DNA of 64,000 bases from assembly GCF_009914755.1 (NCBI RefSeq), contig NC_060940.1. One strand, 5' to 3'. Below the pieces are notes generated by a model. The model was not told the DNA's origin. It saw nothing but the letters and a program-made list of their open reading frames with translations, and ran no database searches. Positions 2,758-26,240 of this stretch are shown here, piece after piece. A program made the position numbers and the translations under genes. Origin of the DNA: the human T2T-CHM13v2.0 reference genome, Homo sapiens. Position 1 is the first letter of the stretch. Each line of letters opens with the position of its first letter.

Positions 2758-3349
2758 GTGTGTTGAGCCAATGACTAAGATAAAAAGTCTGAAGACTTCT
2801 TTGACCCTCAGAACCCCAGAACCTCCCTTCTGGAAGAAAATTTGCCACTATCTTCTCAAAATGCAAAACTCAAATTCCAGAGGGGTCTTCCAATGTCACC
2901 TTTTCCTTGAAGTCCAAGAGAGGTTCGGAAACAGGCCTGAGGTCCCGTAGCTGCTCAGGGCTGGGCCCTGCATTCAACCCTCGATCTGCTGGTAGCCAAA
3001 GTCCCTATTTTGAACCCTGCCACCCTCCACGGGGAGGATGAAGGGCTTGGAGTTGAACTCAATTAAATCTTCCTCACTCTCTCAGCCAGTTTATTTGTCC
3101 ATTTGAGTCTTAAAGAGGCGTTGATGAGAACTCCACAGGAAATCATGAGACAGCAGAGGTGCTTTGCAGCAGAGAAGGCAGGGCGGGGCAGAACAACCTT
3201 CCCCAGCACGCAGGTCATTAGTTCCATTTGCAAGGGCCACTCCCCGCCAACACTACTACCCTCCAGCTCATTTAATTCAAAATAAATGTACAGGGCAGGA
3301 AAGTCATTGAGGTGCAAGAAAGGAGGGAAGGCTTTAAAAGCGAGCTATG

Positions 3350-3653
3350 GGCCAGGCGTGGTGGCTCACGCCTGTAATCCCAGCACTTCAGGAGGCCAAG
3401 GTGGGAGGATCACCTGAGGTCAGGAGTTCGAGACCAGCCTGGCCAACATGGCAAAACCCCATCTCTACAAAAATTAGCCAGGCATGATGGCAGGTGCCTG
3501 TAATCTCAGCTATTTGGGAGGTTAAGGTAGGAGAATCGCTTGAACCTGGGAGGCGGAGGTTGCAGTGAGTCTAGATTGCGCCATTGCACTCCAGCCTGGG
3601 TGACAGAGTGAGACTCTGTCTCAAAAAATAAATAAATAAAATAAAATAAAAAC
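3350..3653 (+). mobile_element. AluS with TSD
   Basis: TSD aaaagcgagctatg / aaaagtgagctatg. Confidence 0.95.
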
Positions 3654-3744
3654 AAAAGTGAGCTATGAATTTCATTTCCAAGGAAAGGAGAATACGGAAG
3701 AGAGAGTGGAGAAGTTGAAGAGACCCAGAGGAGCATGGCACCAT

Positions 3745-4000
3745 GGGAGAGCTGTGGCTCCAGCGTGCAGCGGCCCTGGGTTCAAATTCTGGCTCTGTCA
3801 TTTCGCGGTTGTGCGAGGGTGTCACATGCTTAGCCTCTCTGAACCTCAGTTTACCCATCTGAAAAATGAGGACCAAAGTGGCACCTATTTCCTGGGGCTG
3901 TTGGGAGGATCCAATGAGACCATGAGCTGATCTATGCATAACACCTGGCTCAGAGCAGGCTCTGGAATGTAGCTCACATATTTTCTGGGCACCTACTGGA
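3745..4000 (+). mobile_element. MIR
   Basis: Core cctctctgaacctcagtttacccatctgaaaaatg. Confidence 0.8.
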
Positions 4001-5328
4001 TGCCAAGCACCATGTGGGGATTTGGCATTGAACAAGACAGGCAAGGCAGTGCCCTTGTGGAGTTCAAGGTCTTGTGAAGAGAACAAGACAGAAAACATGT
4101 GAACGCATAAAACGAGATCATTTCGGGGATTTGCAGGAGGGACAAAGCAAGGTGACTTGAGAAGGTGTTTATTTTAGACAGCACGGTCCAGGGAGGTTTC
4201 TCCAAGGCGAGGACATTGAGGTGAGACTCGGATGGAGCCCATTATGGGGAGCAGCGTCAAAAACAGTGAGCAGGGGAGCCCCTAATCCCATCAGCAAACA
4301 GCTCCCACCTGCCCTGGAATGGCTGCTGAGAGAGGTCCCTGTGGGTCCCCAGGCCTCTGAGAGCTGCCACAGCCCGGCCAGCCTTCCTGAGCTAGTCCCA
4401 TCCTGATGGGGGAATGGGGGGCTTCAGAGTCAACAATGAGGGCTCTGCTTGCGTTTTTATTTCTGATGCCAAGTGGTGTCTATGATGCAGGGTCTGACTT
4501 GGGGCTCTTGACACCTTGCATTTTGGGGATATTAAGTCAAAATCTTAAATGACCACTTAGCGTTAGGCTCTCGGCTATACGCTAGAGACAGACGTGAAGA
4601 AGTCCTGCCTCTCAGGCCATGCTGAGGCTCTCCCCAAGATCTGGGCAGGGCTGCTTCACAGCCATGCCACCCCTCTGCCTCAAGGCAGCTGTGAATCAGT
4701 TTTTGGAGTTCAAATCAGATCGTGCCACCTGTGATTCCATTGTCTTGCAAGTGGCTTCCAAGAGGTAGCCCAAGTTCCTCAAGGTGACATTTCAGGTGTG
4801 TTGCAACCCAGCCCTGCTAAGCCCTCCCGCCTGGCCCCTCCTGCTCCCTGGTCCTCAGTGTGCCAGCAACAGCCATTAGCTGCTGTAGACAGAACCGGAC
4901 ACAAGCATCCATCCTCCTCCTTGAAATTGCATGTGCTGTTCCTCCCATCTAGAATGCCTTTTCCTACCTTCACTGCTCAGCCTGCAGGATGCATCACAGA
5001 TGATGCTGCCTGGTGAACCCTTGCCTAGCAACCCGATCCGTATCTCAAGTGAGGTCAGGTCCAGCTCTGGGATCTACAGGACAACTACACCAAAATCTAA
5101 GACCCCTTCATCCCAGGACCCAGGGAATCACCCCCACCCTTCAGGACCCTGCCAGACCTTCACTCAGCCTGCCTTTCAGGGCACTAAGCCTTTCCATGCC
5201 CAGGTCAATCACAGTCGCACGAGGAAAGAACAAGGAAGTGGTCAGACTCACAGCATCCTTATCGGCAGACCATCCTGCCCACTTTACAAGGAAGGGGACT
5301 GAGGCTTTCACTTTATAAGGTCACTGGG

Positions 5329-5757
5329 TGCTATAGTTTGGTTTATGTGACCCCCTCCAGATCTCAGGTTGAAATTTGATCTCTGCTGTTAGAGATGGAG
5401 CCTAATGGAAGGTGTTTGGGTCATGGGGGAGGACTCCTCATGAATAGATCAATGCCCTCCCTTGTGTGGGACGAGGGTGGAAGTGAGTTCTCACTCTATT
5501 CGTTTCTGCAGGAGCTGGTTGTTGAAAAGAGCCCGGCACCTCCCTCCGTCTCTTGCCTCCTCTCTTGCATGTGACCTCTGCACACAGCAGCTCTCCTTTG
5601 CTTTCCTCCATGAGTGGAAGCAGCCTGAGGCCCTCACCAGAAGCAGATGCAGGCTTCTTGTACAGCCTGCAGAACCATGAGCCAAATAAGCCTCTATTCA
5701 TTGCAAATTACCCAGACACAGGTATTCCTTTACAGCAACACAAACAGACGTAGATGC
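5329..5757 (+). mobile_element. MST (MSTB-like) solo LTR inserted in a MIR
   Basis: tgctatagtttgg...gagccaaataagcct...aattacccag. Confidence 0.88.
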
Positions 5758-5828
5758 CCAACTTGCAAATCAGAGCCTGGATTTGAACCAGATCTTTGGT
5801 TCCTCTGGCTCAAAGTCATCCTCTTTCT

Positions 5829-5900
5829 ACTACATTGGTACAAAAGTAATTGCAGTGTTTGCCACTGAAAGCAATGACAAAACTGCAATTACTCAATGCA
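5829..5900. mobile_element. MADE1 (Hsmar1-derived MITE), right terminus missing
   Basis: ttggtacaaaagtaattgcagtgtttgcca...tgacaaaactgcaattact palindromic core. Confidence 0.85.
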
Positions 5901-6001
5901 TGCAGGTCATTAGTTCCATTTGCAAGGGCCACTCCCCGCCAACACTACCCTCCAGCTCATTTAATTCAAAATAAACGTCCAGGGCAGGAAAGTCATTGAG
6001 G
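5898..6001 (+). repeat. Direct copy of unique segment 3206-3312
   Basis: gcaggtcattagttccatttgcaagggccactccccgccaacact...gtcattgagg at both sites; ~3 substitutions and one 3-nt indel. Confidence 0.97.
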
Positions 6002-6478
6002 CAGCCCATGCATCCTCACCTACTTACTCTTGTCCTGAACATAACAGAAGAGCTCTTTTCTGCTCTTCCTAGAGGTTTTTGCCAGCTCAGTCCCTCGCGG
6101 TGGGCACTTGCCCGTCCTGACAATAACCTGATGACCTTCGCTGCTCTGATGTTCACTCTGACCTGCTGCCTGGACAGCTTTTGGAAATCTCCTTCTCCAG
6201 CAGGGCGTCTGCTCCTGTGGCTCTCAAGGCTCCAGCCAGTGTTTCCAGGGACATTTGTCTCAATGGGAACCTTTGGGCAGCCTAGAATTTTGAACTGTTG
6301 AGAAGCCAGCGGTCTTTCTCTCTGCTCTTCTGCCTTTTTTTTTTTAATGGAGTCTCGCTCTGTCATCCAGGCTGGAGTGCAGTGGTGTGATCTCGGCTCA
6401 CTGCAACCCAACCTCCATCTCCAGGTTCAAGTGATTCTCCCGCCTCAGCCTCCCAAGTAGCTGGGATTACAGGTGCCC
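6001..6478 (-). repeat. Left arm of ~480-bp inverted repeat (partner 7341-7822)
   Basis: Reverse complement of 7341-7822 with ~8 substitutions; shared private Alu variant ggttgggttgcagtg. Confidence 0.97.
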
Positions 6479-6629
6479 ACCACCGTGCCCAGCTAATTTT
6501 GTATTTTTTAGTACAGACAGGGTTTCACCATGTTGGCCAGGCAGGTCTTGAACTCCTGACCTCAGGTGATCTGTCTGCCTTGGCCTCCCAAGGTGCTGGG
6601 ACTATAGGCATGAGCCACCACGCCTGGCC
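6334..6629 (-). mobile_element. AluS, full length
   Basis: Poly(T) followed by a complete dimer. Confidence 0.95.
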
Positions 6630-6789
6630 CCTTCTGCCCTCTCGAAGGACCATCTCCCTTGCTGACAGGGCATCTGCCAATCAGCAATCTTTCACCTCTA
6701 GGTCACTCTCCAAGTAAGACAGACCAGGGCGATGACTGGGGAGCACTTCCTAAGTCCTTGGCACCATCGTTGAGTTGGCGGCTGGTGGG

Positions 6790-7290
6790 GGTTTTAGAAA
6801 AGAAGAAAAATTGGCTTCAAGGACCACATCCCACTCAAACTAGCTTAACTCCAAAGGAAGTTCTGAGAGGCCACAGGGGACTGTCCTGGGCCCAGGAGGT
6901 GTTCGAAGAGCAGACTTAGAACATGAGATGGGGACTCCCTCTCTGTCTCTGATTACCAGGGGTCTTCCCTTGACTCCTCTACACATCCGTTTCATTCTTT
7001 TGTTGTGGCGACACCCACATGATGACCATGGCCCCATGGTTGTCTGCCCCACCTCCTAGCTCAGCAGTGCACCTGGTCACCCCACAGTCAATGAAATCTC
7101 TAGGTCTCCTTTTCAAAAAAAATCCAAAGAGAGAGATTCTGATTGGTCCAGTTGGAGCCGGGTCCAGCTCAGGTCCAGTGAGCTGAGGCGAGGGGTAGGG
7201 TTGCACCATGCAGAGAGGCGCCCCTTGGGGCTGTGGTCAGTTTCATTAATAAGGGAGTGTAGCTGGGGAGGCAATGATTGGCACCACTAA
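6790..7290 (-). mobile_element. Old MLT1 LTR, degenerate
   Basis: cactcaaactagcttaa..., gagagagattctgattggtccag motifs. Confidence 0.5.
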
Positions 7291-7340
7291 TATGGGTGGG
7301 GGATGGGGAGTGCACCATTGTTTGGTTTATTATTAGGTTG

Positions 7341-7822
7341 GGGCACCTGTAGTCCCAGCTACTTGGGAGGCAGAGGCGGGAGAATCACTTGAACCTGGAG
7401 ATGGAGGTTGGGTTGCAGTGAGCCGAGATCACACCACTGCACTCCAGCCTGGATGACAGAGCGAGACTCCATTAAAAAAAAAAAAAAAGGCAGAGGAGCA
7501 GAGAGAAAGACCGCTGGCTTCTCAACTGTTCAAAATTCTAGGCTGCCCAAAGGTTCCCATTGAGACAAATGTCCCTGGAAACACTGGCTGGAGCCTTGAG
7601 AGCCACAGGAGCAGATGCCCTGCTGGAGAAGGAGATTTCCAAAAGCTGTCCAGGCAGCAGGTCAGAGTGAACATCAGAGCAGCGAAGGTCATCAGGTTAT
7701 TGTCAGGACGGGCAAGTGCCCACCGCGAGGGACTGAGCTGGCAAAAACCTCTAGGAAGGGCAGAAAAGAGCTCTTCTGTTATGTTCAGGACAAGAGTAAG
7801 AAGGTGAGGATGGATGGGCTGC
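7341..7822 (+). repeat. Right arm of ~480-bp inverted repeat (Alu right arm 7341-7488 plus unique flank)
   Basis: See 6001-6478; also explains the near-identical ORFs 5996..6301(+) and 7522..7911(-). Confidence 0.97.
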
Positions 7823-9082: not shown

Positions 9083-9099
9083 TAAATAGGCCAGAGAAA

Positions 9100-9981
9100 A
9101 AAACAAACAACCCCATCAAAAAGTGGGCAAGGATACGAACAGACACTTCTCAAAAGAAGACATTAATGCAGCCAAAAAACACATGAAAAAATGCTCATCA
9201 TCACTGGCCATCAGAGAAATGCAAATCAAAACCACAGTGAGATACCATCTCACACCAGTTAGAATGGCAATCATTAAAAAGTCAGGAAACAACAGGTTCT
9301 GGAGAGGATGTGGAGAAATAGGAACACTTTTACACTGTTGGTGGGACTGTAAACCAGTTCAACCATTGTGGAAGTCAGTGTGGCGATTCCTCAGGGATCT
9401 AGAACCAGAAATACCATTTGACCCAGCCATCCCATTACTGGGTATATACCCAAAGGACTATAAATCATGGGGCTATAAAGACACATGCACACGTATGTTT
9501 ATTGCGGCACTATTCACAATAGCAAAGACTTGGAACCAACTCAAATGTCCAACAATGATAGACTGGATTAAGAAAATGTGACACATATACACCATGGAAT
9601 ACTATGCAGCCATAAAAATGATGAGTTCATGTCCTTTTTAGGGACATGGATGAAATTGGAAACCATCATTCTCAGTAAACTATCGCAAGAACAAAAAAAC
9701 CAAACACCGCATATTCTCACTCATAGGTGGGAATTGAACAATGAGAACACATGGACACAGGAAGGGGAACATCACACTCTGGGGACTGTTGTGGGGTGGG
9801 GGGAGTGCGGAGGGATAGCATTAGGAGATATACCTAATGCTAAATGACGAGTTGATGGGTGCAGCACACCAGCATGGCACATGTATGCAGATGTAACTAA
9901 CCTGCACATTGTGCGCATGTACCCTAAAACTTAAAGTATAATAATAATAAAATAAAATAAAATAAAATAAAAATAAAAAAT
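9100..9981 (+). mobile_element. 5'-truncated young L1PA (L1PA2-4-like), ~0.9 kb
   Basis: ORF2 C-terminus in frame ([19 protein letters not shown]...CWWDC...), 3'UTR G-tract, GAG (non-Ta) diagnostic, A-rich tail, TSD aaataggcca(g/a)agaaa. Confidence 0.96.
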
Positions 9982-10477
9982 AAATAGGCCAAAGAAAGCA
10001 TTAATCCTAAAGAGAAGGATGGATAAATTTAGCTGCTTTAAAATTAAGTATTTCTTTGGATATTTACCTTAAACCATCTATAAAAATTAACTCAATATGG
10101 ATCAGAGACCTAAACAGAAGAGCTAAAACAATAAAACTCTTAGTAGAAAACAGGAGGAAAACTTCATGACATTGGATTTGGCAACAGTTCCTTGGGTATA
10201 AAACCAAAAGCACAGGCATCAAAGGAAAAAATAGATAAACTGAACAACATCAAAATTAAAACTTCTGCATCAAAGGATAATATCAAGACAGTGAAAAGGC
10301 AACCCATGCAAGGAGAAAAAATATCTGCGAATCAGAGATATCTGATAAGGTGTTAATATCCAGAATATATAAAGACTCCTCCTGTAACTTACCACCAACA
10401 AAAAAACAAACACTGTGATTCAAAAATGGGCAAAAGACTAAGCTATGAGGTTGCAAAGGCATAAGAATGACACAATG

Positions 10478-10982
<505 letters not shown>

Positions 10983-11842: not shown

Positions 11843-12070
<228 letters not shown>

Positions 12071-12546
12071 TTAGTGTATCTTCACAACACACAACAGCCA
12101 ACAGCCAAGGGACCCACCTGTCCCTCAACAGACAAATGGATAAACCAGGTGTGTTACATCCATGCGATGGCATATTAGCCTTAGGAAGAAATGGAATTCT
12201 CACACGTGCTGCACCAGAAATGAACCTTGAAGACATTATGTTTCATGAAATAAACCAGACACGCAAATACTGGTGATTCCACTTAGATGAGGTACCCAAA
12301 GTAGTCAAATTCATAGAGATAGGAAGTAGAATGGTGATTGCCAGAGGCTGGAAGGAGAGGCAGATGGGAAGTGAGTGCTTAATGACTACAGAGTTTCAGT
12401 TTGGGAAGATGAAAAAGTTCTGGAGGTAAATGGTGATGATGGTTGCAGAGAATGTGGATGTATTTAATGCCACTGAACTGTACACTTAAAAATGGTTAAA
12501 ATGGTAAATTTTATGTTATATATTTTACCATAATAAAAAAAATTAA

Positions 12547-13325
<779 letters not shown>

Positions 13326-18771: not shown

Positions 18772-19649
<878 letters not shown>

Positions 19650-20060: not shown

Positions 20061-20471
<411 letters not shown>

Positions 20472-24649: not shown

Positions 24650-26240
<1,591 letters not shown>

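What the first reader, a model, noticed from the sequence alone, without database searches (positions are those of the whole stretch)
5829..7822. Inversion that cut a MADE1 palindrome in two, with a ~104-bp templated insert and ~480-bp inverted repeats
MADE1 at 5829-5900 lacks its right end (ccaacctaata), and that end appears reverse-complemented at 7331-7341 (tattaggttgg), fused to the middle of an Alu. Reconstruction: synthesis left MADE1 at GCA, copied 3206-3312 (GCA microhomology), jumped to 7822 (G overlap), copied ~1.34 kb backwards to the MADE1 end, then resumed inside the Alu (G overlap). This explains why a full Alu is at 6334-6629 but only its right arm is at 7341-7488. The breakpoint lies in a hairpin-forming MITE, a plausible trigger.
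Basis: partly seen in the sequence, partly recalled or inferred. Interest (0 to 1): 0.75.

Follow-up and report, generated by a model that had tools for sequence, protein, structure and literature searches.

The report
Patched DNA break with flipped spacer
In an intron of the human GSG1L gene, a small transposon lies in two pieces around two copied patches of nearby DNA and a reversed 862-base stretch, likely the scar of a chromosome break repaired roughly 5-18 million years ago; this is a known kind of rearrangement, though two similar patches of apparently the same age lie within 6 kb.

Summary
The structure is real. Arms 6001-6478 and 7341-7822 are inverted copies (8 substitutions in 478 bp). 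Insert 5898-6001 copies 3206-3312. The missing end of the MADE1 sits reversed at 7331-7341, the best profile match among 127,980 positions.

Two corrections. First, MADE1 homology stops at 5893, followed by a 4-base filler, so the 'GCA' join is not clean. Second, flipping the 862-bp spacer gives the inferred ancestor plus one clean 577-bp insertion. The same three junctions therefore fit a simpler history: a two-ended break in MADE1 patched with two local copies, and the spacer flipped through the new inverted arms. I favour this (0.55) over one continuous template-switching strand (0.27).

The hairpin trigger is possible but unsupported. No ape genome was available. Divergence of 1.9% suggests an origin before the human-chimp split. 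The locus is absent from a 44-sample inversion table and a human-chimp list.

The class is known (inverted duplication, dupINV, templated insertion). The extra observation is two more inverted patches of similar divergence within 6 kb (p about 0.01, small background). Interest 0.3.

The parts
3206..3312 (+). Donor of the ~104-bp patch
   Evidence: 94.4% to 5898-6001; two copies found in the genome
5828..5893 (+). Left piece of MADE1, with TA target site at 5828-5829
   Evidence: genome-wide matches end at the base matching 5893
5894..5897 (+). 4-base junction filler CAAT; possibly fold-back copy of 5833-5837 or reversed copy of the donor end
   Evidence: each match has about 1% chance and such 7-mers recur nearby, so origin unresolved
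5898..6001 (+). Templated patch 1 (copy of 3206-3312)
6001..6478 (-). Left inverted arm
   Evidence: 8 substitutions in 478 vs right arm
6335..6629 (-). Full-length Alu with target duplication; its 3' half lies in the left arm
6479..7340 (-). 862-bp spacer, reversed relative to the inferred ancestor
7331..7341 (-). Right end of MADE1 plus TA, fused to mid-Alu
   Evidence: best profile score of 127,980 positions
7341..7822 (+). Right inverted arm (Alu right arm 7341-7488 plus unique DNA)
10845..10982 (-). Neighbour E2: inverted copy of 10670-10804 inserted in an L1 3' piece
   Evidence: 2 substitutions in 88 non-poly-A bases; empty site aligns across another L1 copy
11862..12068 (+). Neighbour E3: inverted copy of Alu piece 12588-12794, with target duplication (11845-11859 / 12090-12104)
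   Evidence: 5 substitutions in 207
12071..12084 (+). Second snippet of E3: exact 14-base inverted copy of 13277-13290
   Evidence: chance about 9e-5 in 2 x 12 kb

Best explanation
A MADE1 element lies split around two local copies and a reversed spacer, likely because a two-ended break near its right end was patched by copying 3206-3312 and an inverted copy of 7341-7822, and the 862-bp spacer then likely flipped by recombination through the new identical inverted arms. Shown: copies, junctions, split element, and the equivalence of the flipped form to ancestor + one 577-bp insertion. Inferred: the break, the order of events, the age (about 5-18 million years from recalled primate divergence rates). 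The flip was either a crossover outcome of the same repair (about 0.15) or a later ectopic recombination (about 0.40).
For: Flipping the spacer in silico leaves two collinear blocks and one 577-base gap against the inferred ancestor (partly by construction, it shows topology only). The two MADE1 pieces rejoin with 0-6 bases missing, expected for a patched two-ended break and about 0.2-0.5% likely otherwise. The two neighbours of like divergence are plain insertions with unflipped surroundings, and E3 is also a double patch. Sudmant 2015 (PMC4617611, passages): 54% of 229 validated inversion sites were inverted duplications, nearly all <1 kb within 5 kb; complex sites 5%. Frith and Khan (PMC5829575, parts 2-4 of 7): double non-tandem duplications inserted between their two sources. 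Setton 2023 (PMC10482687, passages): one junction set fits insertion (cis) or inversion (trans), and short copied tracts were exclusively cis. Giner-Delgado 2019 (PMC6748972, passages): inversions between highly identical inverted repeats recur in humans and apes.
Against: No unflipped form was found: none of the 26 chr16 rows of Porubsky 2023 Table S1 covers the locus (44 samples) and no human-chimp inversion row maps here in Feuk 2005 (coordinate transfer recalled). The arms (478 bp) are shorter than the smallest repeat (654 bp) among the 24 recombination-type inversions. A later flip needs two fixations. Setton's data are mostly long-range tumour events. Substitutions do not reveal a crossover point: 3 polarisable ones are all on the right arm, 1 ambiguous, 4 unpolarised.
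Confidence: 0.55

Rival explanations
1. One reading: one nascent strand made three template switches (MADE1 to 3206, 3312 to 7822 reversed, MADE1 end to mid-Alu), copying 1.34 kb backwards, giving the duplication-inversion in one step (FoSTeS/MMBIR).
For: Gives the present sequence directly; 1-3 base overlaps at all junctions and GCA within 2 bases of all six junction ends. Collins 2017 lists dupINV as a recurrent class compatible with MMBIR/FoSTeS (passages). No intermediate is on record.
Against: Overlaps are near random expectation. The return to within 0-6 bases of the first break needs a broken template. The first junction has a 4-base filler rather than a clean GCA switch.
Confidence: 0.27
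2. Staggered-break inversion: a near-blunt break in MADE1 and nicks 480 bp apart across the arm region; fill-in made the inverted duplication, and end joining captured the 104-bp patch.
For: [quoted passage not shown]
Against: Needs a separate templated synthesis for the 104-bp patch; does not relate to the neighbouring plain insertions; same paper notes repair synthesis can mimic staggering.
Confidence: 0.1
3. No inversion: the right arm is a plain inverted duplicate and the 11-mer at 7331-7341 is chance or the stub of a second MADE1.
For: MADE1 is a palindrome, so any copy begins with this 11-mer; a near match scoring 16.0 vs 17.1 exists at 25997. No older repeat spanning the rejoined site could be detected.
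Against: The 11-mer is the top score of 127,980 positions, sits exactly at the arm edge and supplies what the left piece lacks; about 7,850 MADE1 exist genome-wide (PMC1784062), one per roughly 400 kb.
Confidence: 0.04

Closest known systems
Inverted duplication / 'Ins with MultiDup' (Sudmant 2015) and double non-tandem duplication (Frith and Khan 2018)
   Same: Copies <1 kb placed within 5 kb of their sources; two non-adjacent sources, target between them; little loss at the target.
   Different: Here the DNA between target and one source is reversed, and the event appears old rather than a current polymorphism.
dupINV complex variant (Collins 2017); trans rDelDup (Setton 2023)
   Same: Inversion with a duplication at one breakpoint and 0-6 bases lost at the other.
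   Different: About 2 kb in all, with an extra 104-bp patch; those classes were defined on larger variants in patients or tumours.
Inverted-repeat-mediated recurrent inversions (Giner-Delgado 2019)
   Same: Spacer bounded exactly by >90% identical inverted repeats.
   Different: Repeats are 478 bp and were made by the rearrangement itself; no polymorphism is recorded.
MADE1 / mir-548 hairpin family (Piriyapongsa and Jordan 2007)
   Same: About 80-bp palindrome with TA ends once rejoined.
   Different: Split, diverged, far below the mir-548 gathering score.

Membership tests
MADE1 MITE | About 80 bp: two 37-bp terminal inverted repeats around 6 bp | tested here: met
   Definition from PMC1784062; rejoined pieces give an 84-base hairpin including both TA, z -5.0 and -6.3; 75 matches at 40 scored loci
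MADE1 MITE | TA target-site duplication (recalled feature; seen in most fetched copies) | tested here: met
   TA at 5828-5829 and at 7331-7332 reversed
mir-548 precursor | Rfam gathering score 90 | tested here: not met
   34 bits
dupINV | Inverted segment with a duplication at one breakpoint | tested here: met
   relative to the inferred ancestor
dupINV | Ancestral allele seen in an outgroup or other haplotype | not testable with these tools
   The genome search holds no relatives
FoSTeS/MMBIR product | Microhomology at each junction beyond chance | tested here: inconclusive
   3, 1, 1 bases; null probabilities 0.035, 0.28, 0.28
FoSTeS/MMBIR product | Templated inserts from nearby DNA | tested here: met
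   shared with break-patching pathways
FoSTeS/MMBIR product | All junctions formed in one event | not testable with these tools
   Divergences 1.7% and 2.9% do not differ (Fisher p 0.42) but cannot date the flip
Inverted-repeat-mediated (NAHR) inversion | Inverted segment bounded by >90% identical inverted repeats | tested here: met
   98.3% over 478 bp
Inverted-repeat-mediated (NAHR) inversion | Both orientations exist with the repeats present | tested here: inconclusive
   No row in two tables; sub-kb inversions are under-called
Palindrome-triggered rearrangement | Recurrent breakage at the same structure | tested here: inconclusive
   2 of 480 strand matches are broken at this site; one is this locus, the other an Alu insertion. 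Excludes only a very strong hotspot

The most novel reading that the evidence does not exclude
One germline repair episode in an ape ancestor left three templated-patch scars within 6 kb (5898, 10845, 11862), one starting from a fold-back in a MADE1 hairpin; the arms it created then let the spacer toggle, so apes may carry either orientation. This would be a datable fossil of clustered micro-scale break patching that builds its own inversion substrate.
Probability: 0.15. Interest if true: 0.55.

Novelty: new member of a known kind. Interest (0 to 1): 0.3.

Why it matters
As a single deep-intronic scar it has little expected function: it is about 26 kb from the only GSG1L exon in the window and carries no annotated element. 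Its value is as a worked case: small 'complex inversions' read as multi-switch replication errors may be plain templated insertions whose spacer flipped through the repeats the insertion made. That, the MADE1-fragility idea and the clustering of same-age patches are each directly testable with existing ape and pangenome assemblies.

Tried and rejected
Old repeat spanning the rejoined site or the 7822/7823 boundary as an internal outgroup: nothing significant. Two independent Alus homogenised by conversion: rejected, the arms include 334 bp of unique DNA and other full Alus in the window reach at most 84.7% (44 hits). Error-prone synthesis of one arm: 4 transversions of 8, p 0.26, not supported. 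G-quadruplex pattern within 40 bases of five breakpoints: none. L1 at 9100-9935 as trigger of the cluster: it has its own target duplication and its best genome matches are 95-97%, somewhat older than the 2% cluster, so not supported. Young rearrangements round other MADE1: no long inverted copy in 20 loci of 3 kb, too few to mean much. A larger MADE1-centred and random background could not be obtained, so background rests on 264 kb. Supplement searches in PMC2603318 (primer table only), PMC4617611 (one file) and PMC13721702 were negative but are uninformative, since the coordinate tables may not be held. 'Staggered' in PMC3961182 refers to enzymes. Porubsky 2022 tables and a recalled paper on short paired duplications could not be seen.

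Full report
Observation. Self-comparison shows inverted arms at 6001-6478 and 7341-7822, 862 bp apart, with 8 substitutions and a 4-base poly-A difference, and a direct copy of 3206-3312 at 5898-6001 with 3 substitutions and a 3-base indel. Genome searches found no further copy of the unique parts. The Alu at 6335-6629 is whole and has an 8-base target duplication on both sides; the 15 positions where its duplicated half differs from the window majority are shared by both arms, while other full Alus are at most 84.7% identical. So the arms are one sequence duplicated, and the left arm plus spacer is an ancestral continuity.

MADE1. The element at 5828-5893 matches 40 scored loci and Rfam mir-548 weakly. 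In the 19 fetched copies the column majority after the point matching 5893 is TTTGCA then CCAACCTAATA; one copy (L009) is truncated there. The 11-mer lies reversed at 7331-7341, at the arm edge, and is the best of 127,980 window positions. The split is therefore well supported. The window has CAAT instead of TTT at 5894, so between 0 and 6 bases were lost. CAATG is the reverse complement of 5833-5837 in the element's own left arm and pairs with it in the predicted fold; CTCAATG is the reverse complement of the donor end. Each has about 1% chance, yet that 7-mer recurs at other nearby sites, so the filler's origin is unresolved. Very short fold-back copies at breaks are documented in yeast (PMC11724301, abstract).

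Mechanism. Reversing the spacer gives the inferred ancestor plus one 577-base insertion (this shows topology only). The three new junctions are thus the same for a one-step duplication-inversion and for a double templated patch at a break in MADE1 with the spacer flipped through the arms. Setton 2023 makes this cis/trans point and found short copied tracts only in cis (passages). Sudmant 2015 found inverted duplications in 54% of validated inversion sites (passages); Frith and Khan describe double duplications inserted between their sources (parts 2-4 of 7). The near-exact rejoining of the MADE1 halves is natural for a two-ended break and about 0.2-0.5% likely for a free-running backward leg. 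Against this reading: no unflipped allele is recorded, and 478 bp is below the smallest repeat among 24 recombination-type inversions (654 bp; passages).

Age and polymorphism. Copies differ by 11 of 582 bases, 1.9% (95% interval 0.9-3.4). With recalled divergences of about 1.2% to chimpanzee and 3% to orangutan this points to roughly 5-18 million years; conversion between arms could make it look younger. None of the 26 chr16 rows in Porubsky 2023 Table S1 covers the locus, and the coordinates were not found elsewhere in that file. In Feuk 2005 Table S1 only two human chr16 rows start at 27 Mb, neither here. The coordinate transfer is recalled; it places one of those rows on the inverted pair about 101 kb into my extended region, which suggests the transfer is about right. 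This fits, but does not show, chimpanzee sharing the human orientation.

Hairpin trigger. The rejoined element folds well (-16.8 and -21.0 kcal/mol, z -5.0 and -6.3) but weaker than the median of 19 other copies (-29.0, range -14.2 to -42.2). Of 480 strand matches to a two-motif MADE1 pattern, 2 lack all three T after the second motif: this locus and an Alu insertion. This rules out only a very strong hotspot at that site. With about 7,850 MADE1 (passages) and local copies this common, a few chance hits genome-wide are expected (inference). The neighbours broke in L1 pieces. I give the hairpin a causal role about 0.35.

Neighbourhood. Two more young inverted copies lie close by: 10845-10982 (2 of 88) and 11862-12068 (5 of 207), the latter with a second 14-base templated snippet and a target duplication. 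Pooled divergence is 18 of 877, 2.05%, homogeneous (p 0.84). In 264 kb (window plus 100 kb each side) the 24-mer scan gave 7 inverted and 13 direct clusters within 10 kb. On inspection 5 of the 7 inverted ones were at least 94.9% identical and 2 were ordinary Alu pairs (87.5 and 90.9%). Of the 13 direct ones, one is the 104-bp patch, 4 were aligned and set aside as Alu pairs (82-94%), and 8 short-offset clusters were set aside as tandem arrays without alignment. Three of the five events fall within 6 kb: p 0.014, or 0.012 conditional on this finding. The test is post hoc and the background small.

Literature. Eight full-text searches (listings only unless noted) gave no paper on this locus or on MADE1 as an inversion breakpoint; the library lacks most subscription papers, and several supplementary tables could not be seen. 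Collins 2017 (passages) names dupINV; PMC11702581 (passages) was read for the L1 idea, which was not supported.

Verdict. A real, old, intronic rearrangement of a known class. Novelty: new member of a known kind. Interest 0.3.

Noticed in passing
window 10670-10982: Inverted copy of an Alu right arm with poly-A and flank, inserted 40 bp from its source in an L1 3' piece; forms a 135-bp near-palindrome.
   Followed up: yes
window 11845-12104, donors 12588-12794 and 13277-13290: Double inverted templated insertion (207 + 14 bp) with target duplication in an L1 piece.
   Followed up: yes
window 3206, 3314, 5898, 6001, 7343: GCA or TGCA lies within 2 bases of all six junction ends, and each product junction differs from the outgoing sequence just before it. 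Unexplained, post hoc.
   Followed up: partly
G000:C16:28310924-28311418 and 28314537-28315061 (L041-L042): Inverted pair of about 500 bp, 97.8% identical, 3.1 kb apart; by recalled coordinate transfer it may match a 155-bp human-chimp inversion row in Feuk 2005.
   Followed up: partly
G000:C16:28139969-28140300 and 28145841-28146180 (L030-L031): Inverted pair of about 335 bp, 94.9% identical, one end running into different Alus.
   Followed up: partly
window 9085-9995: 5'-truncated primate L1 with target duplication in the middle of the cluster; best genome matches 95-97%.
   Followed up: partly
L026 (G000:C8:70160949): MADE1 interrupted by an Alu insertion at the same position as the break here, with target duplication.
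   Followed up: yes
L009 (G000:C10:6549641): MADE1 lacking its right end near the same position; the end was not found within the 3-kb locus.
   Followed up: partly
window 19040-19313 and 20071-20344: Inverted Alu pair at 90.9%, higher than either Alu's other matches (87%); possible partial gene conversion.
   Followed up: no
window 6001-7822: The arms would form a long near-perfect double-stranded stem in GSG1L pre-mRNA, a likely RNA-editing substrate; not tested.
   Followed up: no
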